DNA of 64,000 nt. Origin: a virus (Duplodnaviria; Caudoviricetes). Below, in pieces: positions 6,172-20,856 of the stretch. The DNA is taken from the IMG/VR virus record IMGVR_UViG_3300027974_001530. One strand, 5' to 3'. The position numbers were made by a program, and so were the translations under genes. Within the stretch, counting starts at the first letter, position 1. The number at the start of each line of letters is the position of its first letter. Below the pieces are notes generated by a model. It did no database searches and was not told where the DNA came from. It was given only the letters and a program-made list of their open reading frames with translations.

Positions 6172-6597
6172 TCAATCTTTATTAAAGATATTCATAATTA
6201 TTTTCTTAAAATCTTTGTTTTTTTCATTTAATGGGTTATTTGTTTTTGTAAAATACCCACATTTGGTATGTTCAAACCCATCTCTAGCCTTTTTTAGATC
6301 CGGATTAATTTCTTGATTTGTATTATATTGATATACATACATAAGACCTTTTTTAGTTTCTCCATCTCTTTTGTACATATTAAGAATGTCAACAATATTT
6401 AAATCACCTTTTAATTTAATATTAGTTTCCTCATAAAACTCCCTTATAGCCGCCTCTTTTGGGGTTTCATTTCCTTCAACCTTACCAGATGGTATGGACC
6501 ATTCATTTGGTAAAGTTTTATTCGGTGACCTTTTACAAAGTAAAACTTTATCTTTGTTTTTTACCACCACACCTGAATATCTGTTAAATTCTGCCAT
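6172..6597 (-). CDS. NUDIX hydrolase (start revised to MAEFNR)
   Basis: Nudix box GKVEGNETPKEAAIREFYEET. Confidence 0.9.
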   Translation of the reverse strand: MAEFNRYSGVVVKNKDKVLLCKRSPNKTLPNEWSIPSGKVEGNETPKEAAIREFYEETNIKLKGDLNIVDILNMYKRDGETKKGLMYVYQYNTNQEINPDLKKARDGFEHTKCGYFTKTNNPLNEKNKDFKKIIMNIFNKD

Positions 6598-6604
6598 GTT
6601 AATA

Positions 6605-6616
6605 TATTTATAAATA
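6605..6616. promoter_or_regulatory. Palindromic TATTTATAAATA: a late-type motif on both strands between divergent genes
   Basis: Perfect 12-bp palindrome in the 18-bp gap between the NUDIX and DUF192 starts. Confidence 0.6.
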
Positions 6617-6963
6617 TGGATATAATCATAAATAATAACAAATACACAGTTAAACCTGTTATCACACAAAAAGATATCTCAAATGGAATGATGAATAAAA
6701 AATTCAATAATTCTTTTGATGGTATGTTATTTATTATGGAAGATGGTGATCATAGTTTTTGGATGAAAAACTGTATAATCCCTTTAGATATTATATTCAT
6801 AAAAAATAACGAAGTAACGGAAATACACCACAACTGTCTTCCTTGTAAAGAAGAAGAGTGTGAAAGATTTGAAGGGTATGGTGATATGATATTAGAAATA
6901 CCGGCAGGACATTGTGAAGAATATAATATCGTTGAGGGTAATAAGATTACTTTTCACTATTAA
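6616..6963 (+). CDS. DUF192 family protein
   Basis: GMLF...SFWMKNCIIPLDIIFI...ILEIPAG. Confidence 0.85.
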   Translation: MDIIINNNKYTVKPVITQKDISNGMMNKKFNNSFDGMLFIMEDGDHSFWMKNCIIPLDIIFIKNNEVTEIHHNCLPCKEEECERFEGYGDMILEIPAGHCEEYNIVEGNKITFHY

Positions 6964-8326
6964 TCTTTGTTTGTAAAATTTCGTAAAACTTCTGTTGTAT
7001 TTCTTTTGTTAGATCAACATAACTTTTTTGTCCATTCCCATCTTTTTTTCTATATAAAGAATTAATACCTGAAATATTAGTAATACATTTATGTCCACCT
7101 GAATTAGCATTTATGATGTCTCTACCATTTAACACAACTTTGTCCAATAGTGCAACTTGTTTTACACTTAAATTTCTGTAAGGTCTATCCATTATATTTT
7201 CTATAATCGGGAACAATGTCTCTTTTCTACCAAAAACTTTTAAGGAAGGACTTTTGCCATATATCGCCATAAAGTCTTTGAATGTAAATCCGACTGATTT
7301 GAATGTTGCTTTTTGTTCTGAAACAACTTTTAATGTTGATAATGGGACTATAATACTTTCTAATTCTGGATTCATCTCATCCAAAACCTCATTTTTTATT
7401 TCACCTAAATCAACACCTTTAAGTGCTCTTTCTTTTTTATATGGGTTACAGGAAGCCTGAACTAATCCCATTGGCCAAGCAATAACTAAAAAGTCAGCGT
7501 CAGGATTATTTTTAAAAGGCGTGTATCTATCGTAAGATCCTTGTGGTGTCATATAACCTCCACCGTATTGTACCAATATGTTTCCACTAACATTTACGTT
7601 AGGACTAACATTCATACTTTGAATATATTTTTGTTGGTTTTGTGTTAGTTTTTCTTCATTATCAAAACCTTCTCTTTTCATTATAGATTTTATCTTAAGT
7701 AGTATATTAAGTAAAGAAGGTTTACAATCTAAAACTAATTCCTCTAAGAATCCTGGTTTGTTTTTAAATGCCAATAGTAATTTGTTTGCAACTAATCCCA
7801 TTAACATTTTATTTCTTTTAACGTCAGAATTTCTATCTATCTTAAATAGATAATTTATAACTTCATCAACAGAAATATTATATTGAGCAAAATTTGCGGA
7901 GTCTACGGTAGAAATTAATGTAATATCTTCATTAGGGAATATTTCTTTAGGTGAAACACTTTGAGATATTGTCTCTACATTAGATCTTGAACTTCTAAAA
8001 GAAGTTGCAGTTCCGTCCTCAACTCCGGCTTGAGTGTCGTGGTGATCTGTATGAATAACAAACATTGGTTTACCGTGAGCAAAATCAACTAAAACAGGCA
8101 TTATATCACCTTTAGCGTCTAATTTTTTAATTGCAAACTCTTTATCTCCATATTGAATAATTTCAGCATCCACAACATTTATGTTATTTGACTCTAAATA
8201 TTCTTTCATCGCAATGGCGGTTGTTACACCATCTAAATCTTGATGAAAATAAATTTTTGCTTTAGGGTATCTTTTTGATAAATTTTTGATGTCTCTAATA
8301 CCCGATTCTTTAATTAGTCTTTTCAT
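6947..8326 (-). CDS. DHH-family phosphoesterase
   Basis: FHQDLDG, VDFAH, TDHHD, TVDSA and SGGH motifs; LIKE leader; TATTTAT at 8338-8332. Confidence 0.8.
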   Translation of the reverse strand: MKRLIKESGIRDIKNLSKRYPKAKIYFHQDLDGVTTAIAMKEYLESNNINVVDAEIIQYGDKEFAIKKLDAKGDIMPVLVDFAHGKPMFVIHTDHHDTQAGVEDGTATSFRSSRSNVETISQSVSPKEIFPNEDITLISTVDSANFAQYNISVDEVINYLFKIDRNSDVKRNKMLMGLVANKLLLAFKNKPGFLEELVLDCKPSLLNILLKIKSIMKREGFDNEEKLTQNQQKYIQSMNVSPNVNVSGNILVQYGGGYMTPQGSYDRYTPFKNNPDADFLVIAWPMGLVQASCNPYKKERALKGVDLGEIKNEVLDEMNPELESIIVPLSTLKVVSEQKATFKSVGFTFKDFMAIYGKSPSLKVFGRKETLFPIIENIMDRPYRNLSVKQVALLDKVVLNGRDIINANSGGHKCITNISGINSLYRKKDGNGQKSYVDLTKEIQQKFYEILQTKINSEK

Positions 8327-8350: not shown

Positions 8351-8378
8351 AAAAACCCCATTTATGAAAATGGGATTT
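8351..8378 (-). terminator. Intrinsic terminator after the methyltransferase gene
   Basis: aaaaaCCCCA...TGGGattt imperfect stem overlapping the stop codon. Confidence 0.45.
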
Positions 8379-9213
8379 CTTTTATTTGACCTAATGTTTT
8401 AAAATATTCAACTCTTGTTTTGGCAATCTCAGTATAATTTGGTGATAACTCAATACCCAACCATCTACGCCCCAATATCTCTGCTGCTACCAAACTTGTT
8501 CCTGACCCAACAAATGGGTCTAATACTACATCGTTTTTGTAGGACAATATTTTAATCGCCTTTGTTGGGATGTCCATTGAGAAGGTCGCCTTGGTGAGTG
8601 ATTTAGTATCTGCAAAGTAATTCCACTGACCAAAAACAAGTTCCATAAATTCTTTCTTATCTTGTTCTTCATATACCACTTTATTTTTTATGGTTCCATC
8701 CTCCTGAATAATTTCAGTTGGTGTTCCCTTCCACTGTGGTTCTCCTTTAACCTTTTTGATGTGTAATTTTTTATAACCCAAAATAACACATTCTTTTGGG
8801 TTATATATATAAGGACTTGACGGTGACATCCAAGATCCCCACGCAGTTGTTTTACTACGATGAGGTGATTGTTCTTCAAGGTCAACAATACCAAAGAACC
8901 CAAACCCTATCTCTTTCATTATTTGATACATCTCAGAAACAAAAAAGATTCTTCCTCCTTTCTTTTGTCTGTTAATTTCATACGGTATGTTTAACGCAAT
9001 TCTACCATCATCTTTTAACACATTATAGGCTTCAGTTAACCAATTCCTTGCAAAGACCAAGTATTCTTGAAACTCCACGTCATCATCATGAGTATCATAA
9101 GCAATACCAACACCGTATGGTGGTGAGGTAACAATTAAATCAACACAACCTTCAGGTAAGGTTTTCATCACTTCAACACAATCTCCAGTTATTATTTTTC
9201 CTGTTTCTATCAT
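8362..9213 (-). CDS. N4-cytosine/N6-adenine DNA methyltransferase (beta class)
   Basis: TSPPY catalytic motif precedes the LDPFVGSGT SAM-binding motif. Confidence 0.92.
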   Translation of the reverse strand: MIETGKIITGDCVEVMKTLPEGCVDLIVTSPPYGVGIAYDTHDDDVEFQEYLVFARNWLTEAYNVLKDDGRIALNIPYEINRQKKGGRIFFVSEMYQIMKEIGFGFFGIVDLEEQSPHRSKTTAWGSWMSPSSPYIYNPKECVILGYKKLHIKKVKGEPQWKGTPTEIIQEDGTIKNKVVYEEQDKKEFMELVFGQWNYFADTKSLTKATFSMDIPTKAIKILSYKNDVVLDPFVGSGTSLVAAEILGRRWLGIELSPNYTEIAKTRVEYFKTLGQIKEIPFS

Positions 9214-10235: not shown

Positions 10236-11747
10236 TTAGTCTATTCTCATTACAACATAATTAGTACCATTAATGTTAACTGTATCATAACTACCATCAT
10301 AACCATTTAAATCACCATAATCCCCATTTCTAACTAAATCATCTAATAACTCTCTTGTATCAATAAAATCGGCAATATCCCCACCCATATTATCTAACCA
10401 TCCGGCTGGATCATAACCTATCTCATTTTCTAAGTAATTATCAACCGCCTCTTCAATACTACTTTCGTCAGGATCCCCATCAGGACTTTCTTTTATATCA
10501 TCTATCTCTGAGTCTATTTCACTAATCCTATTTTCACGATCGGTTTCATGTTCTTCGGTGTCCTCATCGTCATATAATTGTCTTGGTGGAACAACTTGAC
10601 CCTCCTTATATAATATTGAATTATTTCCTTCTCTTCTATATTGTAATTCATTATCCTCAGAATCATAAAAATCAAATGTTCCATCTTTTTCTTTTGATGG
10701 GTACCTGATTGGGGCTCTTACTCCTTCATTTTCGTAAACCCATTTTTCCATTTCTAGTAACCAAATTTCTTCTTCTTGAGAATTACTTAATTCTTTTTCA
10801 ACCCCGTAACTATCAGGTTCATCTCTTATCCATTCTTCTACAGAATCCCTATAATATTCTTTTATTTTATCTTCATCAACATAACTTGATAGAGTTTCTT
10901 TAGAAAAATAATTATCAAGGTCATCAATTTGTTGTTCATAATAATCCTCCAATGAATCATCGGCTTCCCTATATTCACCAACCGCAAATCTCATTTTTGT
11001 TGACAATGACTCAAACTCGGCCAAATTATAATGGGAACCTGTCGGATATAGATCATATACATCATTTTTATCTTCAATTAATCTATCAATGTCTTCTTGT
11101 ATACTATCTATTTCTTCTTGTATCTCATCAAATTTGTCACTGTAGTCATATTCATCAGTATCTGTACTTAAATTTTCTTGCTCTTCTTCTTTATTTTTTA
11201 TTCTTATTTTAAGTTCCTTAAGTTCTATTTTTTCGTCATCATCAAGAGATTGTAAATGCCCATCATTTACCGCATATTGAAAAACCGCATTGGCTCTTGG
11301 ACTTTCGTAACCAGTATTTTCTATATCCCAATCACCATCTTCTCTTTTTTCATTTTGTTCATTATATTTGGCTTGTAGTTGTCTTCTTTCAATAACCTTT
11401 TCGTAAGGGGTTTGCCAAAAAGTTTTATGTCCCGTAACCTTAACATCATCCAATGATTTAACATTTGTGTATGAAACATTCAAACCTCCTTCAACCTCAA
11501 TGTCCCCAATTTTATAAATCTTTTGTTTACCATCAACATTACTAAGATTAAGGTCACCTTTAACAACAAGTTTTTTACCCCTAAATTTTGGTAAATAAGG
11601 TATTGCATGAGCCATAAAACCAACTTGTCTTAAATATTGCATATATTGTTCAGGTGAAATATAAACTTTTTCAATTTCATCTTCTTTAATTAATTTAAGA
11701 ATAATACTAACAAGTTTATTTTCAGTAAGTCTTATTTTCTTTTTCAT
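10236..11747 (-). CDS. Highly acidic putative head-associated protein (start revised to MKKKIRLTE)
   Basis: KIRLTENKL...LIKE leader, a short GDLNLS/GGLNVS repeat, a D/E-rich C-terminus, and TATTTAT at 11760-11754. Confidence 0.7.
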   Translation of the reverse strand: MKKKIRLTENKLVSIILKLIKEDEIEKVYISPEQYMQYLRQVGFMAHAIPYLPKFRGKKLVVKGDLNLSNVDGKQKIYKIGDIEVEGGLNVSYTNVKSLDDVKVTGHKTFWQTPYEKVIERRQLQAKYNEQNEKREDGDWDIENTGYESPRANAVFQYAVNDGHLQSLDDDEKIELKELKIRIKNKEEEQENLSTDTDEYDYSDKFDEIQEEIDSIQEDIDRLIEDKNDVYDLYPTGSHYNLAEFESLSTKMRFAVGEYREADDSLEDYYEQQIDDLDNYFSKETLSSYVDEDKIKEYYRDSVEEWIRDEPDSYGVEKELSNSQEEEIWLLEMEKWVYENEGVRAPIRYPSKEKDGTFDFYDSEDNELQYRREGNNSILYKEGQVVPPRQLYDDEDTEEHETDRENRISEIDSEIDDIKESPDGDPDESSIEEAVDNYLENEIGYDPAGWLDNMGGDIADFIDTRELLDDLVRNGDYGDLNGYDGSYDTVNINGTNYVVMRID

Positions 11748-11828
11748 ATAACAATAAATATGAAACATTTACAAATAAGACAATAGACTGATATTTATGT
11801 TTAAATAAACATTAAAAAACAATTTGTT

Positions 11829-11972
11829 ATGGGATGTGGTTGTAAAAATAAAGGAAATCAACAAGCTTCAGCTCCTCAACAGGCAGCAAGACCTCAAAAT
11901 GAACAGGTTAAAAATCAATCAGTTCAAGAGTCAGTAAAGAAGATAGTTGAAAAATATTATAATAAAAAGTAA
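11829..11972 (+). CDS. 47-aa MGCGCK microprotein (not in the ORF track)
   Basis: MGCGCKNKGNQQASAPQQAARPQNEQVKNQSVQESVKKIVEKYYNKK*, with TATTTAT at 11792-11798 and a terminator downstream. Confidence 0.8.
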   Translation: MGCGCKNKGNQQASAPQQAARPQNEQVKNQSVQESVKKIVEKYYNKK

Positions 11973-11997: not shown

Positions 11998-12023
11998 AAG
12001 GTGGAGTTTTTTCCACCTTTTTT
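11998..12023 (+). terminator. Intrinsic terminator
   Basis: AAGGTGGA/TCCACCTT stem plus a T-run. Confidence 0.75.
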
Positions 12024-12035
12024 GTATTTATAATT

Positions 12036-13148
12036 ATGGACAATTCAAACTTAAAAGAACTAATTGAACTATTCAATAATGGGTATTGGGAAAAGAGCGT
12101 AAAACCATACTTTAAAAGAGTCCGTACTTTTTTAAAGTACGTTGCAGTAAAAGGTTTATCTGAAGAAATTAGTGTTGAGGTATTAGATAGTGAAGATTAT
12201 AATGAAGGTCCTGATTTTTTTGGGTTTTTAAATGAGAATGGTTATTTAAAAGGAAAAGAGTATGATGACTTTGATAATGAACTTAGAAATTACTTTTTAT
12301 CTTATTGGATTTCAGTTGCTCCAAATAACGCATTTAAATATATAACGAATAATATTATAACCGATGTAGAAATTAGAGATGATGGATTTTGGTTATATTT
12401 AAGGGATCGAGATGAATTGGCCCCTCTTTTTGATGGTAGAGGTCGTGATACGACGGCTAGAAATGTTGCCGAACATGTTTTTGGTGAAGATATGTGGGAA
12501 CCTTATTGGGACACAACATCTGACGTATATAGTGATGTAATTGAGGAACTTGATGAATCTAACTATAGACATTTAGAAAATTATATTTTAAAAATGATCG
12601 GTAATCAGGATTTGGTTGTTGACGATTATAGTTCTGATTTTTTTCATGATTTGGCAAAGTCTCAAAATAGAGGCGAGTTTTTTATGATAACCCAAAATGA
12701 TGTTAATGAGTTACTAAAGGATTCTGAGGCAATGAACGAACTTCTTGATGGTGATCTATCCGATTTAAAAAGTGAATTATATTCTATACATAATAACGCC
12801 TATAATGGTGCATATCAAGATGAATGTTACGCACTTGTTTATGGTGGTCTTGAGGAATTTTTTTCCTCTAAGATTGAGGACGTTCAGATTAAGTCAGGAG
12901 ATAAAACAAAATGGGCATCGTATATTAAGATCGGGGATTTTAAAAGGGATATTATGGAATTTATTGGCCTTGAGGGTGGTAGTGGATATAATGAATCAAA
13001 TTTAGAATACTGGGGTGGTTATGTTAGTATGTTAGGACATCTAATGGATAATGATGTATATGACGAAATTGACTTTAGAGTACCTGATTATGCAGATTGG
13101 ACCTATATTAGAAAAAATATAAACGATCTTTTTACAGACTATATATAA
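12036..13148 (+). CDS. Acidic hypothetical protein with a late-type promoter
   Basis: 370-aa ORF with TATTTAT at 12025-12031. Confidence 0.8.
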   Translation: MDNSNLKELIELFNNGYWEKSVKPYFKRVRTFLKYVAVKGLSEEISVEVLDSEDYNEGPDFFGFLNENGYLKGKEYDDFDNELRNYFLSYWISVAPNNAFKYITNNIITDVEIRDDGFWLYLRDRDELAPLFDGRGRDTTARNVAEHVFGEDMWEPYWDTTSDVYSDVIEELDESNYRHLENYILKMIGNQDLVVDDYSSDFFHDLAKSQNRGEFFMITQNDVNELLKDSEAMNELLDGDLSDLKSELYSIHNNAYNGAYQDECYALVYGGLEEFFSSKIEDVQIKSGDKTKWASYIKIGDFKRDIMEFIGLEGGSGYNESNLEYWGGYVSMLGHLMDNDVYDEIDFRVPDYADWTYIRKNINDLFTDYI

Positions 13149-13223: not shown

Positions 13224-13919
13224 ATGAGATTATTAAACAAAAATTCAAAAAGATTTATAGTAAATTTATTTTCTGATTTTATTCTTTCAAAGATAGATAA
13301 AACAGAAAAAACTATAATACAAGTTTCTGACTGTAATAGCTTTATTGTTGTCGCAGGTAAAAGTACCAGTAAGGAGATACTTGATCTACAATCAATAAAA
13401 GGAGAGTTCTTTATTAAATTTAAATCTTATTTAGATGACGTTGGTATTGATCACATGAATATAATTGATATAATCACCTATGGTGCAACTTTAGAACCAT
13501 TAGAATGTGGTTGGGTGAATGTTACTAAAGATCTGTATTATAATGTTCCTGAACCTGTGACAAACATTATAACGACTTCAGAATTTCCTTACGGACATAG
13601 TTTAAGTTGTGGTAGATCTATGGTGTATTACTCTAACTACATATTCAATCATATGTATAGTTTGCTTGGTGTAAAAGATTTAAAATTTTATTTCACAACT
13701 GATGTTGACTCTGATGAAGATTTTAAAATTGAAATTTTATCTAAATCTAAAGTTAGTCCTAATGAAATTAAATCTTTGATTTTGGATGTTTTTGATTTTA
13801 ACCTAAATGAGTTCAATAATAAATTAACTAACTATAACCTTATTGAAGACATTTTATACCAAGATAACAATAAGCCATACATGGTACAGGACAGATTAGA
13901 ACATGTAGTTTTATTATAA
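13224..13919 (+). CDS. Degenerate S-adenosylmethionine synthetase (MetK)-like protein lacking catalytic motifs
   Basis: By-eye alignment to MetK N- and C-terminal domains: LFSDFILSKI~QISDAVLDAI, IVVAGKSTS~VLVGGEITT, GRSMVYYSNYI~DRSAAYAARYV, KVSPNEIKSLILDVFDF~KVPSEQLTLLVREFFDL. Confidence 0.55.
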   Translation: MRLLNKNSKRFIVNLFSDFILSKIDKTEKTIIQVSDCNSFIVVAGKSTSKEILDLQSIKGEFFIKFKSYLDDVGIDHMNIIDIITYGATLEPLECGWVNVTKDLYYNVPEPVTNIITTSEFPYGHSLSCGRSMVYYSNYIFNHMYSLLGVKDLKFYFTTDVDSDEDFKIEILSKSKVSPNEIKSLILDVFDFNLNEFNNKLTNYNLIEDILYQDNNKPYMVQDRLEHVVLL

Positions 13920-13921
13920 AG

Positions 13922-13947
13922 AAAAACCACTATTAGGTGGTTTTTTT
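13922..13947. terminator. Bidirectional intrinsic terminator between convergent genes
   Basis: AAAAACCAC/GTGGTTTTT inverted repeat. Confidence 0.75.
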
Positions 13948-14233
13948 ATTTCTTAAAAAATTCTTTTATTATTTTCACCCCATCTTCAATTTCGTCAAAA
14001 TCTCTTTCAGGAGCAAATAATTTAGTTTTTGGTCTTTTTGAGTTTGGGTTCTCTATTGTCATAAAAGATGGTACGTATTCATTCTTTGTTATTTCTGTAA
14101 AAATATCATACTCCTCTTTATAATCGTCAATATCCCTATCAAAGTATTTAATGTTTTCTTTATCCAACATATTTTTTAAGTCGTGACAATAAGAACAACT
14201 TTTCATGGTATATAGTACAACTATCTTATCCAT
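13946..14233 (-). CDS. Glutaredoxin/NrdH-like redoxin
   Basis: LYTMKSCSYC and YVPSF motifs. Confidence 0.85.
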   Translation of the reverse strand: MDKIVVLYTMKSCSYCHDLKNMLDKENIKYFDRDIDDYKEEYDIFTEITKNEYVPSFMTIENPNSKRPKTKLFAPERDFDEIEDGVKIIKEFFKK

Positions 14234-14236
14234 ATT

Positions 14237-14377
14237 TTATTTATTTAAGTAATTTATACTATCATTATAATAGTTTTTATTTTGGTTCGACCCATAAGCA
14301 TCGCAATTAGCGGATTTTGTTGTCTTACATGAAAATAAAACAAAGGTTAACAAAACTGATAAAATTATTCTATACAT
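14237..14377 (-). CDS. 46-aa small lipoprotein (not in the ORF track)
   Basis: MYRIILSVLLTFVLFS|CKTTKSANCDAYGSNQNKNYYNDSINYLNK*, with an LFSC lipobox; fills the trx-grx gap exactly. Confidence 0.8.
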   Translation of the reverse strand: MYRIILSVLLTFVLFSCKTTKSANCDAYGSNQNKNYYNDSINYLNK

Positions 14378-14378
14378 A

Positions 14379-14693
14379 TTAATTTAATAAAAGATTTTTA
14401 ACTAAACTTTTTATGTTGTTTTCGGCCATAACACCAACTCGTGTATCAACAACATTTCCCTCATTGAAAATTTTTACAGTAGGGATGCTTCTAATCCCTA
14501 GAGTTGAACTAATCTCTTTATTAAGATCCACATTCATCGTATACATTTCAACTTCTGTTTCATTTTCCGTTGATACTTTTTCAAAAACTGGTTTCATCAT
14601 CTTACATGGTCCGCACCATTCCGCCCAAAACTCAACAATAACTTTTTTACCTGAGTTTATTTTTTTTGTTAGTTCATCACCACTAATTTCCAT
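14379..14693 (-). CDS. trxA: Thioredoxin
   Basis: FWAEWCGPCK and IRSIPT motifs. Confidence 0.93.
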   Translation of the reverse strand: MEISGDELTKKINSGKKVIVEFWAEWCGPCKMMKPVFEKVSTENETEVEMYTMNVDLNKEISSTLGIRSIPTVKIFNEGNVVDTRVGVMAENNIKSLVKNLLLN

Positions 14694-18157: not shown

Positions 18158-18997
18158 TTAATAGTTCATTATTAATATCTCTTCTCCCATATTTTGTTTT
18201 TTACCTTTTTTTGCTGCCGCGGCCTTTGCAAACTCCTTTGATTCCCATCTGTATTCATTTTTAGGGAACCATTCGGATAATAAAGGGAAATCATAATACG
18301 ATAAAGAAAACTTACCTTCAATGTTTTTCAACGTGTTTGCCAATCTTTCATGGTCTTGTCTATCAAAATCATGGTTAGAATAATAGTTTTCTGTTTTCCA
18401 ATATGGTGGATCCAAATAAATGTATGTGGATGGTGAGTCATATTTTTTAATTACATCCGCAAAGTCCATATTTTCCACTTTTGTGATCTTAATAAAATGA
18501 TCAATCCAATCAGGCTTTGATAGTTTATCTCTAAACGTCAAATACTTTGACTTGTACTTACCTTTAAGATCAATAAAAGAACTTGTTTCAGGTTTTGATC
18601 CACTAAATACTTGAGTTAAAACGTAAACATATTTTGCTGCAACTTCATAATCGCCAGGTTTTACGCTGAAACCTTCATTAAATATTTCAGCTTGGAACCT
18701 GGTAAATTGTTCTTTATATAATGGTGGAGTTGTCACCTCACCAAATTTTTGACAATCAATTGAGTTTATTGCCTTCAATAACTCCGTTGGGTTTTGGATA
18801 CACTTAAATAAGTTGTAGTTTAATGGGTTAAAGTCGTTGTAAACAACTTTCTTTAGGTTGGGGAACTCTTTTAAGTCCATATTATAAAAACACCAAAACA
18901 TTCCTCCAAACGTCTCAACATACGTTTCCATATTCTTATCATAGAAAGGGACGATCCACTTTCCTATTTTACTTTTTCCTCCGATATAACTTAACAT
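18158..18997 (-). CDS. Dam-like (D12 class) DNA adenine methyltransferase (start revised to MLSYIG)
   Basis: YIGGKS, YVETFGG, VVYND and YLDPPY motifs. Confidence 0.92.
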   Translation of the reverse strand: MLSYIGGKSKIGKWIVPFYDKNMETYVETFGGMFWCFYNMDLKEFPNLKKVVYNDFNPLNYNLFKCIQNPTELLKAINSIDCQKFGEVTTPPLYKEQFTRFQAEIFNEGFSVKPGDYEVAAKYVYVLTQVFSGSKPETSSFIDLKGKYKSKYLTFRDKLSKPDWIDHFIKITKVENMDFADVIKKYDSPSTYIYLDPPYWKTENYYSNHDFDRQDHERLANTLKNIEGKFSLSYYDFPLLSEWFPKNEYRWESKEFAKAAAAKKGKKQNMGEEILIMNY

Positions 18998-19054
18998 ATT
19001 CAAAAAATAATAAACTTATAGTAATTAATCAACAAGAAAAAAATATAAAAAAAC

Positions 19055-19777: not shown

Positions 19778-19936
19778 ATGGAAAAGAAAGAAGCAACTAA
19801 AGTCACAGGATGTCGTAAATGTAATAAAGGACAAGAAAATTTACAAATGTTTTTAGTAATCTCAGGTGGATTATTATTTTCTTTGGCAATTTACGGAGCC
19901 GTTAGATTGGTTCAAGACATCGTATCTTGGTTTTAA
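19778..19936 (+). CDS. 52-aa CxxC single-pass membrane protein (not in the ORF track)
   Basis: MEKKEATKVTGCRKCNKGQENLQMFLVISGGLLFSLAIYGAVRLVQDIVSWF*. Confidence 0.75.
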   Translation: MEKKEATKVTGCRKCNKGQENLQMFLVISGGLLFSLAIYGAVRLVQDIVSWF

Positions 19937-20856
19937 TCCCTATCATATTTCAAATATGGTCTTATTAGCAGATCTCCTATAACAGTCTGTAATCTAAATC
20001 CTTTACTCTTAATTCTCAATGGTTTAGATGTATCCATATGTTTTGGGAAATTGACCGATATGTCCCCATCAGGGTGTGGAACTATAAAATTATCCTTGTT
20101 AATCTCTTCTAAATTAAAAAACTTATTATAAATTAAATGTTCCCCAAATTTTTCAAATCCACTCTCATTTGTTAAACTAATTTTTAATAATAAATCCCCG
20201 TATATTCCATTACCATAATCGCCCATATCATTTAGTCTCAACATTTGTCCATCATCAATACCATGTGGTACTTTAACTTCAACTGACTTTACCTCATCTT
20301 TTGTACCAGATCCATGACAAGCATAACAAGCATTCGTTATAATTGTTCCAAATCCTCGACAAGAGTCACATGGAGATTGTACCATTTGTACGAACATTCC
20401 ACTCCCCATTTGTTTCCAAGTAATCCCTTCTCCTTTACATGTTTCACAAACTTTTTTATCACCACCAGTACCATTACAAGGATCACACTTTTCTTTTCTT
20501 TTATAATTTAACGAAACTTTTTCATTAGTGAAACTTTTTAAAACATCCACACTTAAGTTGATTACTCTTGATGGTTTTCTTTGTTGTCTAAATTGATTAT
20601 TAAACATCTCATACATATCCGAAAATTGGTCGAACTTTGAATTGCCGAATGGGTTCTTTCTTTGGATGTCATATTCTCTACGTTTATTGTCATCCCCAAT
20701 CACATCATAAGCACCAGATATTTTCTTAAACAATTCTTCATCCCCGCCTTTATCTGGGTGGTTTTCCTTTGCTAAACTTCTATAAGCCTTCTTAATTTCG
20801 TCTTGTGTTGCCGTCTCCTCAACGCCTAATATGTTATAATAATTTTCAGAGTTCAT
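19933..20856 (-). CDS. dnaJ: DnaJ co-chaperone
   Basis: J-domain with HPD, four CxxCxGxG repeats, and a C-terminal domain (VPHGIDDG, GDLLL). Confidence 0.93.
   Translation of the reverse strand: MNSENYYNILGVEETATQDEIKKAYRSLAKENHPDKGGDEELFKKISGAYDVIGDDNKRREYDIQRKNPFGNSKFDQFSDMYEMFNNQFRQQRKPSRVINLSVDVLKSFTNEKVSLNYKRKEKCDPCNGTGGDKKVCETCKGEGITWKQMGSGMFVQMVQSPCDSCRGFGTIITNACYACHGSGTKDEVKSVEVKVPHGIDDGQMLRLNDMGDYGNGIYGDLLLKISLTNESGFEKFGEHLIYNKFFNLEEINKDNFIVPHPDGDISVNFPKHMDTSKPLRIKSKGFRLQTVIGDLLIRPYLKYDRD

What the first reader, a model, noticed from the sequence alone, without database searches (positions are those of the whole stretch)
13224..13919. Catalytically stripped MetK (SAM synthetase) mimic
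Seen: the 231-aa protein aligns by eye with the N-terminal and C-terminal domains of MetK (LFSDFILSKI, IVVAGKSTS, GRSMVYYSNYI, KVSPNEIKSLILDVFDF, KPYMVQDRL). It lacks the middle domain and the GHPDK, GAGDQG and GGGAFSGKD motifs. Knowledge: MetK is an oligomer, and T3 SAM lyase inhibits host MetK by binding it, helping to defeat SAM-dependent defences (type I R-M, BREX). Inference: a pseudo-MAT could poison or retune host MetK oligomers as a new anti-defence or SAM-control factor. This sits in tension with the two SAM-dependent methyltransferases the phage also encodes.
Basis: inference. Interest (0 to 1): 0.8.

Follow-up and report, generated by a model that had tools for sequence, protein, structure and literature searches.

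The report
Two-domain dead MetK relative in phage
A giant freshwater phage of Flavobacteria-like hosts carries a strongly conserved 231-residue relative of the SAM-making enzyme MetK that has lost one of the enzyme's three domains and every catalytic motif, so it cannot make SAM; what it does instead, including whether it touches host MetK, is still unknown.

Summary
ORF 13224-13919(+) is a real 231-aa gene under purifying selection (dN/dS 0.09-0.26), and it ends at a bidirectional terminator. An AlphaFold2 model (pLDDT 95) matches only methionine adenosyltransferases (MAT/MetK): VIA Z 15.8 over 220 residues, next unrelated fold Z 5.5, and all top 50 Foldseek PDB hits are MATs. It keeps the MAT central and C-terminal domains. 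A linker of about 15 residues replaces the third domain, the gating loop and GAGDQG. The triphosphate P-loop is shortened and rewritten as SxFPxGxS..GR. HP[DE]K, GDQG and G.FSGKD occur in 0 of 271 family proteins against 79 of 81 MetKs. The family holds hundreds of sequences, all 'hypothetical', with no Pfam model. It is a syntenic core gene of freshwater jumbo phages of the bS21 type that infect Bacteroidota. Relatives of about 272 aa keep a vestigial third domain, so the family arose by reduction of a three-domain MAT. My best reading is a non-catalytic MAT-fold binding module that pairs through the MAT flat sheet and carries a remodelled, conserved cleft. This scan flagged the same family before on two other genomes, with the same conclusion.

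The parts
13224..13919 (+). Gene for the 231-aa two-domain MAT-like protein (P0001)
   Evidence: ORF. 588 homologs. dN/dS 0.09-0.26. MAT fold.
13224..13526 (+). Residues 1-101: equivalent of the MAT 'central' domain (Pfam S-AdoMet_synt_N), plus the strand that MATs donate to the C-domain. The GHPDK position reads S8-K-R-F.
   Evidence: hhalign maps phage 7-64 to MetK 14-74. MetK HMM aligns P0077 18-97 to MetK 35-113. Secondary structure. Residue map.
13527..13571 (+). Residues 102-116: short variable linker standing where MATs have the third (Pfam M) domain. Relatives have 14 to about 60 residues here.
   Evidence: Alignment of the linker region. The long-variant model shows a helix plus three strands here that superpose on MAT.
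13578..13616 (+). Residues 119-131: family signature S-E-F-P-Y-G-H-S-L-S-C-G-R (consensus SxFPxGxS..GR) at the place of the MAT triphosphate P-loop GGGAFSGKD..DR
   Evidence: S119, F121, P122 and G124 are at least 95% conserved and R131 81%. The motif is in 221/271 family proteins and 0/81 MetK. hhalign register.
13572..13916 (+). Residues 117-231: equivalent of the end of the MAT central domain plus the C-terminal domain (Pfam S-AdoMet_synt_C)
   Evidence: hhalign phage 128-225 to MetK 270-374, E 7.8e-4. Pfam PF02773 hits in members. TIGR01034 metK weak hit in P0135.
13920..13947 (.). Bidirectional intrinsic-terminator hairpin between the MAT-like gene and the convergent glutaredoxin gene
   Evidence: 12-bp stem followed by a T run, found on both strands. 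6 terminator-like sites found against 0.5 expected.
11829..11972 (+). Conserved 47-aa microprotein (MGCGCK...QESVKKIVEKYY) that heads the + strand cassette in all relatives. It is the constant companion of the MAT-like gene.
   Evidence: Alignment A3. Directly upstream of the MAT-like gene in L093 and on the P0241 contig. Also in L007. RNA-library contigs cover it.
11998..12019 (.). Terminator-like hairpin after the microprotein gene
12036..13148 (+). 370-aa gene of no known family, a lineage-specific insertion between the microprotein and the MAT-like gene
   Evidence: Present in the window, L007 (371 aa) and L009 (380 aa), absent in L093, L011 and the P0241 contig. No family hit.
13946..14233 (-). 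Glutaredoxin, conserved tail-to-tail neighbour
   Evidence: PF00462, E 1.9e-9. Same position in relatives.
14379..14693 (-). Thioredoxin, conserved neighbour
   Evidence: PF00085, E 1.1e-25. Same position in relatives.

Best explanation
The gene encodes a degenerate member of the methionine adenosyltransferase (MAT/MetK) superfamily. SHOWN: it keeps two of the three MAT beta-alpha-beta-beta-alpha-beta domains, the central domain and the C-terminal domain, in the MAT arrangement. The third domain, the gating loop and GAGDQG are replaced by a linker of about 15 residues. The triphosphate P-loop is about 7 residues shorter and rewritten as SxFPxGxS..GR. The positions of His14, Asp16, Lys17, Glu42, Glu55, Lys265, Lys269 and Asp271 are not kept. 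It therefore cannot synthesise SAM. It is a core, syntenic gene under purifying selection in a clade of freshwater jumbo phages of Bacteroidota (bS21-type, Flavobacteriia hosts). Longer relatives keep a vestigial third domain, so the family arose by reduction of a three-domain MAT, possibly a phage-borne one. INFERRED (mode of action): it works as a non-catalytic binding module. In every MAT the flat beta-sheet face is buried in an obligate dimer and holds the active site. By my residue map the family's best conserved residues lie on or around that face (F40, V42, D82/I84/Y86, N99, S119-S126, R131). The protein therefore most likely pairs through that face, more probably with itself than with host MetK, and presents a remodelled, conserved cleft that binds a still unknown ligand or partner. 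I put the identity part at above 0.9 and this particular mode of action at about 0.35-0.45.
For: Fold: AF2 pLDDT 95.3. Foldseek top 50 all MAT. VIA Z 15.8, 13.8 and 9.0 against 5.5 for the next fold. AFDB clusters and the ESM Atlas by shape also give MATs. Sequence: 11/97 members hit PF02773. P0135 residues 173-252 match PF02773 positions 41-119. hhalign E 7.8e-4 with collinear halves. Loss of catalysis: motif counts 0/271 against 79/81 and the residue map. Real and constrained: 588 and 408 homologs, about 198 clusters at 50% identity, dN/dS 0.09-0.26, a terminator, and fragments in lake RNA libraries (weak). Core-gene behaviour: the same neighbourhood (47-aa ORF, MAT-like gene, then convergent Grx, Trx and DUF932) holds down to 25% identity. 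Reduction series: the long-variant model has pLDDT 93.9, and its extra 45 residues or so superpose on MAT (266/276 aligned, Z 16.1). Length class changes several times on the tree. Conserved surface: N14, F40, G45, T47, D82, I84, Y86, S119, F121, P122, G124, S126, R131 are 80-100% conserved. Glu42 maps to Q33 and Glu55 to K46, which places F40, V42 and residue 44 on the MAT flat face (inference). The family is acidic, pI about 4.9, so nucleic-acid binding is unlikely.
Against: No oligomer or ligand was tested, so homodimerisation and the 'cleft' are inferred from MAT architecture and a low-confidence residue map. I had no model coordinates, so I could not map conservation on the surface directly. 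The many conserved polar residues (S8, N14, D18, D36, T47, D82, Y86, N99, S119, S126, R131) would fit a true enzyme as well as a binder. The arguments against MetK as the partner are indirect.
Confidence: 0.45

Rival explanations
1. First reader's model. The pseudo-MAT co-assembles with host MetK through the MAT dimer face, giving heterodimers with incomplete active sites. This lowers or retunes SAM synthesis to blunt SAM-dependent defences (type I R-M, BREX) or to control the SAM pool. An activating, 'prozyme-like' variant of the same idea is also possible.
For: It is a MAT homolog that keeps two thirds of the sheet that forms the MAT dimer interface, and it has lost catalysis. These phages have no MetK of their own: there is no PF02772 or PF02773 hit in a 93%-complete relative. 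There is a precedent for phage proteins that inhibit MetK: T3 SAMase forms heteropolymers with MetK and helps against BREX (PMC8406200; bioRxiv 10.1101/2023.02.27.530186). There is also a precedent for a dead paralog regulating its active homolog: the AdoMetDC prozyme (PMC6221367).
Against: Identity to MATs is only 9-14%, with no sign of retained interface residues. MetK is among the most conserved proteins, so a face-to-face mimic would be expected to stay more MetK-like. The gene is a deeply syntenic core gene rather than a variable early or accessory gene. The phage encodes two SAM-dependent DNA methyltransferases and so needs SAM. MAT dimers are obligate (established knowledge), so only newly made MetK could be poisoned.
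Confidence: 0.2
2. It is a true enzyme with a new activity, built on a two-domain MAT scaffold. The rewritten loop SxFPxGxS..GR, together with R/K9, T47, D82, Y86 and N99, forms a new active site, for example for a phosphate-bearing or nucleotide substrate. The neighbourhood is rich in nucleotide and redox genes.
For: The strongest conservation sits exactly where MATs bind triphosphate, and it comprises Ser, Thr, Arg, Gly, Asp and Tyr residues typical of catalytic or phosphate-binding sites. Neighbours are Grx, Trx, NUDIX, DHH-like and DNA MTase genes. Family-wide purifying selection and fixed length support it too.
Against: None of the MAT metal, ATP or methionine ligands is kept. A third of the MAT active-site shell, the whole third domain, is missing. 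No known enzyme family matches. Synteny with Grx and Trx may only reflect conserved gene order on opposite strands.
Confidence: 0.2
3. The MAT fold has been recycled as an inert scaffold, for example a virion, assembly or replication-factory component, with no link to SAM, to MetK or to small ligands.
For: Core-gene behaviour in jumbo phages is typical of structural and replication genes. No functional motif of any known family is present.
Against: The gene lies in a metabolic/early-looking region, not among the structural genes. It lacks the N-terminal capsid-targeting-like leaders that earlier notes report on many neighbouring genes. The many invariant polar residues are unusual for a plain scaffold.
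Confidence: 0.1
4. Chance resemblance, or not a real gene.
For: The single sequence has no Pfam, PDB, NCBIfam or PHROG hit.
Against: There are hundreds of homologs under purifying selection. Two independent structure aligners rank only MATs at the top, by a wide margin.
Confidence: 0.01

Closest known systems
Canonical methionine adenosyltransferase (MetK/MAT, EC 2.5.1.6; Pfam PF00438 + PF02772 + PF02773; e.g. E. coli MetK, PDB 7r2w, 5h9u, 4le5)
   Same: Same superfamily fold and same relative placement of the central and C-terminal domains (Z 15.8 over 220 residues). Shared structural sequence features include the G-x-T-[TS]-S strand, the R-S..Y..Y-[IV] helix after the P-loop, and the F-D-[FL] helix cap.
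   Different: 231 aa instead of about 385. The third domain, gating loop and GAGDQG are deleted. The P-loop is shortened and rewritten. GHPDK is absent. All catalytic, metal and substrate ligands are lost. Identity is 9-14%. Scores are far below the Pfam and TIGR01034 cut-offs.
Phage-encoded full-length MATs (e.g. the roughly 345-aa enzymes of Streptococcus temperate phages, Microcystis phage Mel-JY01; a 348-aa, mostly viral MAT cluster in the ESM Atlas)
   Same: MAT-fold proteins carried by phages. The nearest shape in the ESM Atlas is this viral cluster (TM 0.71, 208 aligned). They are a plausible ancestral source.
   Different: Those keep all three domains and the motifs: five of the six fetched have HP[DE]K, GDQG and G.FSGKD, and the Erysipelothrix one lacks a match to the last pattern. 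They are annotated as working SAM synthetases. This family is reduced and motif-free.
T3 SAM lyase (SAMase), a MetK-binding anti-restriction/anti-BREX factor
   Different: Unrelated fold and an active enzyme. It binds MetK and drives it into heteropolymers, and it is not itself a MetK homolog. In PDB 8bb1 my model matches the MetK chain.
Catalytically dead paralogs that regulate their active homolog (e.g. trypanosomatid AdoMetDC prozyme, PMC6221367)
   Same: Homolog of a SAM-pathway enzyme that has lost its catalytic residues but stays under purifying selection.
   Different: Heteromerisation with the active enzyme is the defining property of a prozyme and is untested here. This protein is viral, and its putative partner would be a host protein only about 10% identical.

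Membership tests
MAT/MetK enzymes (EC 2.5.1.6) | Three intertwined beta-alpha-beta-beta-alpha-beta domains with pseudo-threefold symmetry | tested here: not met
   Two domains superpose on MAT (220/231 residues). The third is a linker of about 15 residues here and a helix plus three-strand vestige in long relatives.
MAT/MetK enzymes (EC 2.5.1.6) | GHPDK motif (His14, Asp16, Lys17) | tested here: not met
   HP[DE]K is in 0/271 family proteins against 79/81 MetKs. The mapped positions are S8, R10 and F11.
MAT/MetK enzymes (EC 2.5.1.6) | GAGDQG motif (Asp118) and gating loop | tested here: not met
   GDQG is in 0/271 against 79/81. The region is deleted in the alignment.
MAT/MetK enzymes (EC 2.5.1.6) | GGGAFSGKD triphosphate P-loop, with Lys265, Lys269 and Asp271 | tested here: not met
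   G.FSGKD is in 0/271 against 79/81. The loop is about 7 residues shorter. Lys269 maps to S128 (N/S/K/D in the family) and Asp271 to G130.
MAT/MetK enzymes (EC 2.5.1.6) | Scores above the curated cut-offs of PF00438/PF02772/PF02773 or TIGR01034 | tested here: not met
   P0001 has no hit. The best member scores I saw were 17.8 bits against cut-off 25 (PF02773) and 13.7 against 309 (TIGR01034).
MAT superfamily (fold-level homology) | Significant structural superposition on solved MATs over most of the chain, standing clear of other folds | tested here: met
   Z 15.8, 13.8 and 9.0 against 5.5 for the next fold. Foldseek E about 2e-7, top 50 all MAT. Long variant: Z 16.1, E 7e-12.
MAT superfamily (fold-level homology) | Collinear sequence-profile similarity | tested here: met
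   11/97 members hit PF02773, best E 4.3e-5. hhalign E 7.8e-4 for the C-domain, with the N half collinear at E 0.082. This is weak, but it is in the register the structure predicts.
MAT superfamily (fold-level homology) | Dimer through the flat beta-sheet face | not testable with these tools
Regulatory pseudoenzyme of its active homolog (prozyme-like) / MetK poison subunit | Homology to the active enzyme with loss of catalytic residues | tested here: met
Regulatory pseudoenzyme of its active homolog (prozyme-like) / MetK poison subunit | Physical association with the active enzyme (host MetK) and an effect on its activity | not testable with these tools
   This needs pull-down, activity and SAM-pool assays. 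The in-silico attempt gave no verdict and is listed only under Tried and rejected.
Known anti-defence or defence families (PADLOC, PHROGs annotations) | Profile match to a described family | tested here: inconclusive
   No PADLOC hit. The only PHROG hit is a weak one to phrog_7643 of unknown function, E 0.036. Absence from these libraries does not exclude an undescribed anti-defence role.

The most novel reading that the evidence does not exclude
The family is a virus-encoded regulatory paralog of a central metabolic enzyme. In this reading a two-domain pseudo-MAT docks onto host MetK through the MAT dimer face, possibly together with the conserved 47-aa CxC microprotein, and switches host SAM synthesis off or up during infection by jumbo phages of Bacteroidota. 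It would be the first 'poison or prozyme subunit' of MetK, and a new way for phages to control SAM-dependent immunity and their own DNA methylation.
Probability: 0.18. Interest if true: 0.85.

Novelty: new variant of a known kind. Interest (0 to 1): 0.6.

Why it matters
MAT is one of the most conserved enzymes in biology. To my knowledge, its three-domain architecture with active sites at the dimer interface is regarded as invariant. This family shows that the fold can survive as a stable two-domain derivative, with a graded series of relatives that still carry a stump of the third domain. That makes it a natural experiment in domain loss for a pseudo-threefold fold. The family is large, restricted so far to jumbo phages of freshwater Bacteroidota, kept at a fixed genomic position, and entirely unannotated: it has no Pfam model, every source name I saw was 'hypothetical protein', and the ESM Atlas's own model of this protein fails at pLDDT 0.34. 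A simple outcome is a new family definition that would annotate hundreds of phage genes. If the protein acts on host MetK or on a SAM-related ligand, it would add a new mechanism to phage control of SAM, which matters for type I R-M and BREX. If it is a new enzyme, it would be a new activity on an old scaffold.

Tried and rejected
1. Complex prediction of P0001 (with alignment A1) against Flavobacterium johnsoniae MetK (METK_FLAJ1): no verdict, score 0.00 in both runs, controls not run.
2. Single-sequence searches gave nothing useful. Pfam, PDB phmmer, NCBIfam and PADLOC had no relevant hit, and PHROGs gave only phrog_7643 of unknown function at E 0.036.
3. The family profile (A1) by hmmsearch against PDB sequences found no MAT at E up to 10.
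4. The first hhalign, against a MetK profile made only of Gammaproteobacteria, was weak (E 0.022, probability 2%). A MetK HMM against the family gave no significant scores. Both improved only after adding diverse phage MATs.
5. ESM Atlas by features gave no usable hit. The Atlas's own model of this protein is poor (pLDDT 0.34), so its structure neighbours are meaningless.
6. tblastn of P0001 against the sequenced phages (INPHARED) found no match. The scan of one genome per prokaryote species found no relative. That scan finds close relatives only, so it does not show absence from cells.
8. The window's own assembly is not held. I used the nearest records G001-G004 instead.
9. The 370-aa upstream gene has no family in Pfam, PHROGs, NCBIfam, PADLOC or the ESM Atlas. 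Synteny shows it is a lineage-specific insertion, so I did not pursue it as a functional partner.
10. Sigma-70-type promoter scan: 21 sites against 18.9 expected, so it is uninformative. Bacteroidota and phage promoters are not covered.
11. RNA libraries: only short contigs cover parts of the gene. Uncovered parts mean nothing, and DNA carry-over cannot be excluded.
12. I searched for three-domain 'missing links' or named relatives with the long-variant profile. There were none among the best 120 of 408 hits.
13. I could not map conservation onto the 3-D surface because model coordinates are not returned.
Full report
THE OBSERVATION. The window holds an ATG-initiated ORF at 13224..13919 on the + strand, 231 aa. 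The single sequence matches nothing in Pfam, the PDB sequences, NCBIfam or PADLOC, and has only a weak hit to a PHROG of unknown function. The gene is real. A word-indexed search of 5.8 billion proteins found 588 homologs, nearly all of the listed ones 231 aa long. An exhaustive HMMER search of 1.84 billion cluster representatives found 198 clusters at 50% identity, lengths about 205-277 aa for full-length members, none MetK-sized. Pairwise dN/dS against orthologs is 0.09-0.26. A 12-bp-stem bidirectional terminator follows the stop codon. Short contigs from lake-water RNA libraries of two studies lie inside the gene, two of them identical to the window. That is weak support for expression, since DNA carry-over cannot be excluded.

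IT IS A MAT-FOLD PROTEIN. An alignment of 97 diverse members (A1) gave an AlphaFold2 model with mean pLDDT 95.3 and pTM 0.90. In Foldseek against the PDB, all 50 best hits are methionine adenosyltransferases from bacteria, plants and humans (E about 2e-7, TM by query 0.62-0.67). VIA-align, which does not lean on Foldseek, ranks three MATs first among 48,161 representative chains. These are 5h9u_C (Z 15.8, 220 of 231 residues, rmsd 3.9), 4le5_B (Z 13.8, 223 residues) and the archaeal 7p82_A (Z 9.0). The next, unrelated folds score Z 5.5 and cover a single domain. AFDB clusters and an ESM Atlas shape search also return MATs. Sequence evidence is weak but points the same way. 11 of the 97 members individually hit Pfam S-AdoMet_synt_C, best E 4.3e-5. 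For example, P0135 residues 173-252 match profile positions 41-119, and the same protein weakly hits TIGR01034 metK positions 268-340. I built a MAT profile from E. coli MetK, a subset of the 80 gammaproteobacterial MetKs I had fetched, and six phage MATs. hhalign of the family profile against it gives E 7.8e-4 for phage 128-225 against MetK 270-374. The N half is collinear (phage 7-64 against MetK 14-74, E 0.082), and one large deletion lies between them.

WHAT IS KEPT AND WHAT IS LOST. Residues 1 to about 100 correspond to Pfam S-AdoMet_synt_N, the structural 'central' domain. Residues from about 117 to 231 correspond to the end of that domain plus the C-terminal domain. The stretch where MATs have the gating loop, GAGDQG and the whole third domain (Pfam M, roughly MetK 100-240) is a variable linker of about 15 residues here. 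Motif counts are unambiguous. HP[DE]K, GDQG and G.FSGKD occur in 0 of 271 family proteins and in 79 of 81 MetK controls. The hhalign register maps His14 to S8, Asp16 to R10, Lys17 to F11, Glu42 to Q33 (Q/E/K in the family), Glu55 to K46 (variable), Lys269 to S128 and Asp271 to G130. Lys265 falls in a 7-residue deletion. That register is low-confidence around the loops. Asp118, Asp163, Lys165, Phe230, Asp238, Arg244 and Lys245 have no counterpart. The protein therefore cannot be a SAM synthetase. The former active-site region is nonetheless the best conserved part of the family. S119, F121, P122 and G124 are at least 95% conserved, and S126 is at 89% and R131 at 81%. Together they form the signature SxFPxGxS..GR, present in 221/271 members and 0/81 MetKs, at the place of the P-loop. 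Other strongly conserved residues are N14, F40, invariant G45, T47, D82, I84, Y86 and N99. That pattern fits a repurposed surface better than a decaying one. The family is acidic (median pI 4.9, net charge about -11), which argues against nucleic-acid binding.

A REDUCTION SERIES. Many relatives are 262-277 aa, and a profile search found 408 proteins, most of the listed ones about 272 aa. A model of one of them (P0126, pLDDT 93.9) shows that the extra 45 residues or so form a helix and three strands (residues 109-157). The model aligns to MAT over 266 of 276 residues (Z 16.1), and Foldseek E improves to 7e-12. The insertion is therefore a stump of the third MAT domain. On a quick, midpoint-rooted and poorly resolved tree, length class changes several times, and the window's 231-aa group sits inside a clade dominated by long forms. 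Because the outgroup state is three domains, I read this as repeated trimming. The polarity is inferred, not shown. Full-length MATs are common in sequenced phages (138 records). The nearest shape in the ESM Atlas is a compact 348-aa, three-domain MAT cluster that is 80% viral (TM 0.71). A phage-borne ancestor is therefore plausible. No three-domain intermediate was found.

GENOMIC SETTING. The nearest held record is a 92-kb fragment judged 32% complete. A 54%-identical ortholog lies on a 272,576-bp contig judged 93% complete, and other members lie on contigs up to 290-464 kb. That 93%-complete relative has no MAT middle domain anywhere, and the nearest record has no PF02773 hit, so these phages carry no working MetK. 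The same relative encodes ribosomal protein bS21. This ties the clade to the freshwater bS21 phages predicted to infect Bacteroidetes, mostly Flavobacteriia (PMC9723584). A relative's neighbour gene carries a CHU_C domain, and earlier notes on this genome also point to Flavobacteria-like hosts. The neighbourhood is conserved down to 25% identity. A 45-51-aa ORF and the MAT-like gene lie on one strand, facing glutaredoxin, thioredoxin and DUF932 on the other. The small ORF is a real, conserved microprotein with an invariant MGCGCK start and QESVKKIVEKYY end. In the simplest layouts it lies directly upstream of the MAT-like gene. The 370-aa gene between them in this window is a lineage-specific insertion of no known family. 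This behaviour is that of a core gene, not of a mobile accessory gene.

MECHANISM. Shown: MAT fold, two domains, no catalytic apparatus, strong constraint, core-gene synteny. Inferred: in all MATs the flat sheet formed by the three domains is buried in an obligate dimer and carries the active sites (established knowledge). Glu42 and Glu55 map to Q33 and K46, which places F40, V42 and residue 44 on that face. Together with the conserved D82/I84/Y86 strand and the rewritten P-loop, this suggests a conserved, partly hydrophobic surface that should be covered by a partner. I consider self-pairing, with a remodelled cleft that binds an unknown ligand or partner, the most likely reading (about 0.35-0.45).

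It has precedents in spirit: T3 SAMase inactivates MetK by heteropolymer formation and helps against BREX (PMC8406200; bioRxiv 10.1101/2023.02.27.530186), and the dead AdoMetDC paralog 'prozyme' regulates its active homolog (PMC6221367). Four points count against it. Identity to MATs is only 9-14% with no retained interface. The gene behaves as a core gene. The phage needs SAM for its own N6_N4 and D12 DNA methyltransferases. And MAT dimers are obligate, so subunit exchange would be slow. A true new enzyme on this scaffold (about 0.2) is suggested by the number of invariant Ser, Thr, Arg, Asp and Tyr residues. An inert scaffold role is less likely (about 0.1).

COMPARISON AND NOVELTY. The protein belongs to the MAT superfamily by fold and by weak collinear profile similarity, but it fails every defining feature of MAT enzymes that I could test (three domains, three motifs, curated score cut-offs). 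I found no paper describing a two-domain or catalytically dead MAT-like protein in phages. The only BFVD match is one uncharacterised phage protein. Every source name listed in the searches was 'hypothetical protein'. The scan itself has flagged the same family on two other genomes, and one follow-up reached the same verdict. I class it as a new variant of a known kind. It is ordinary in fold but unusual in architecture, and its function is open and testable.

Noticed in passing
window 11829-11972 (+): Conserved 47-aa microprotein with an invariant MGCGCK N-terminus, a Q/P-rich low-complexity middle and an invariant QESVKKIVEKYY-like C-terminus. It always heads the cassette that ends with the MAT-like gene. 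It is followed by a terminator-like hairpin (11998-12019) and is covered by RNA-library contigs in three runs. The CxC motif next to a Grx/Trx pair hints at a redox or metal role.
   Followed up: partly
window 14237-14377 (-): 46-aa ORF between the glutaredoxin and thioredoxin genes that starts with a hydrophobic signal-like stretch ending in L-F-S-C, a lipobox-like motif. It may be a small phage-encoded lipoprotein.
   Followed up: no
window 12036-13148 (+): 370-aa acidic protein of no known family, inserted between the microprotein and the MAT-like gene only in part of the clade (371 aa in L007, 380 aa in L009, absent in L093 and L011). L007 and L009 carry a further 299-331-aa gene at the same spot.
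   Followed up: partly
window 8362-9213 (-) and 18158-19003 (-): Two DNA methyltransferases, N6_N4_Mtase (PF01555, E 5e-32) and D12/Dam class (PF02086, E 1.4e-20). The phage depends on SAM yet has no MetK.
   Followed up: partly
window 19933-20856 (-): Full-length DnaJ chaperone (J domain, CXXCXGXG zinc-finger domain and C-terminal domain) encoded by the phage. It is also present at the same relative position in L093.
   Followed up: no
window 6172-6669 (-) and 6947-8326 (-): NUDIX hydrolase (PF00293, E 3e-17) and a 459-aa protein with a weak DHH-phosphoesterase N-terminal hit, upstream of the cassette. Together with Grx and Trx this looks like a nucleotide-metabolism region.
   Followed up: no
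L100 (G002:C1:185353-185508): The 93%-complete 272-kb relative encodes ribosomal protein bS21 (PF01165, E 1.9e-8), which links this clade to the freshwater bS21 phages of Bacteroidetes described in PMC9723584.
   Followed up: partly
L093 2981-4093 (-): A relative carrying the long (272-aa) MAT-like variant has a glutamine synthetase gene (Gln-synt_N + Gln-synt_C, 370 aa) a few genes upstream, an auxiliary metabolic gene not seen at this spot in the window.
   Followed up: no
window 10236-11768 (-): 510-aa, very acidic protein with long D/E-rich stretches, divergently transcribed from the cassette and conserved in relatives (400-509 aa). No family hit.
   Followed up: no
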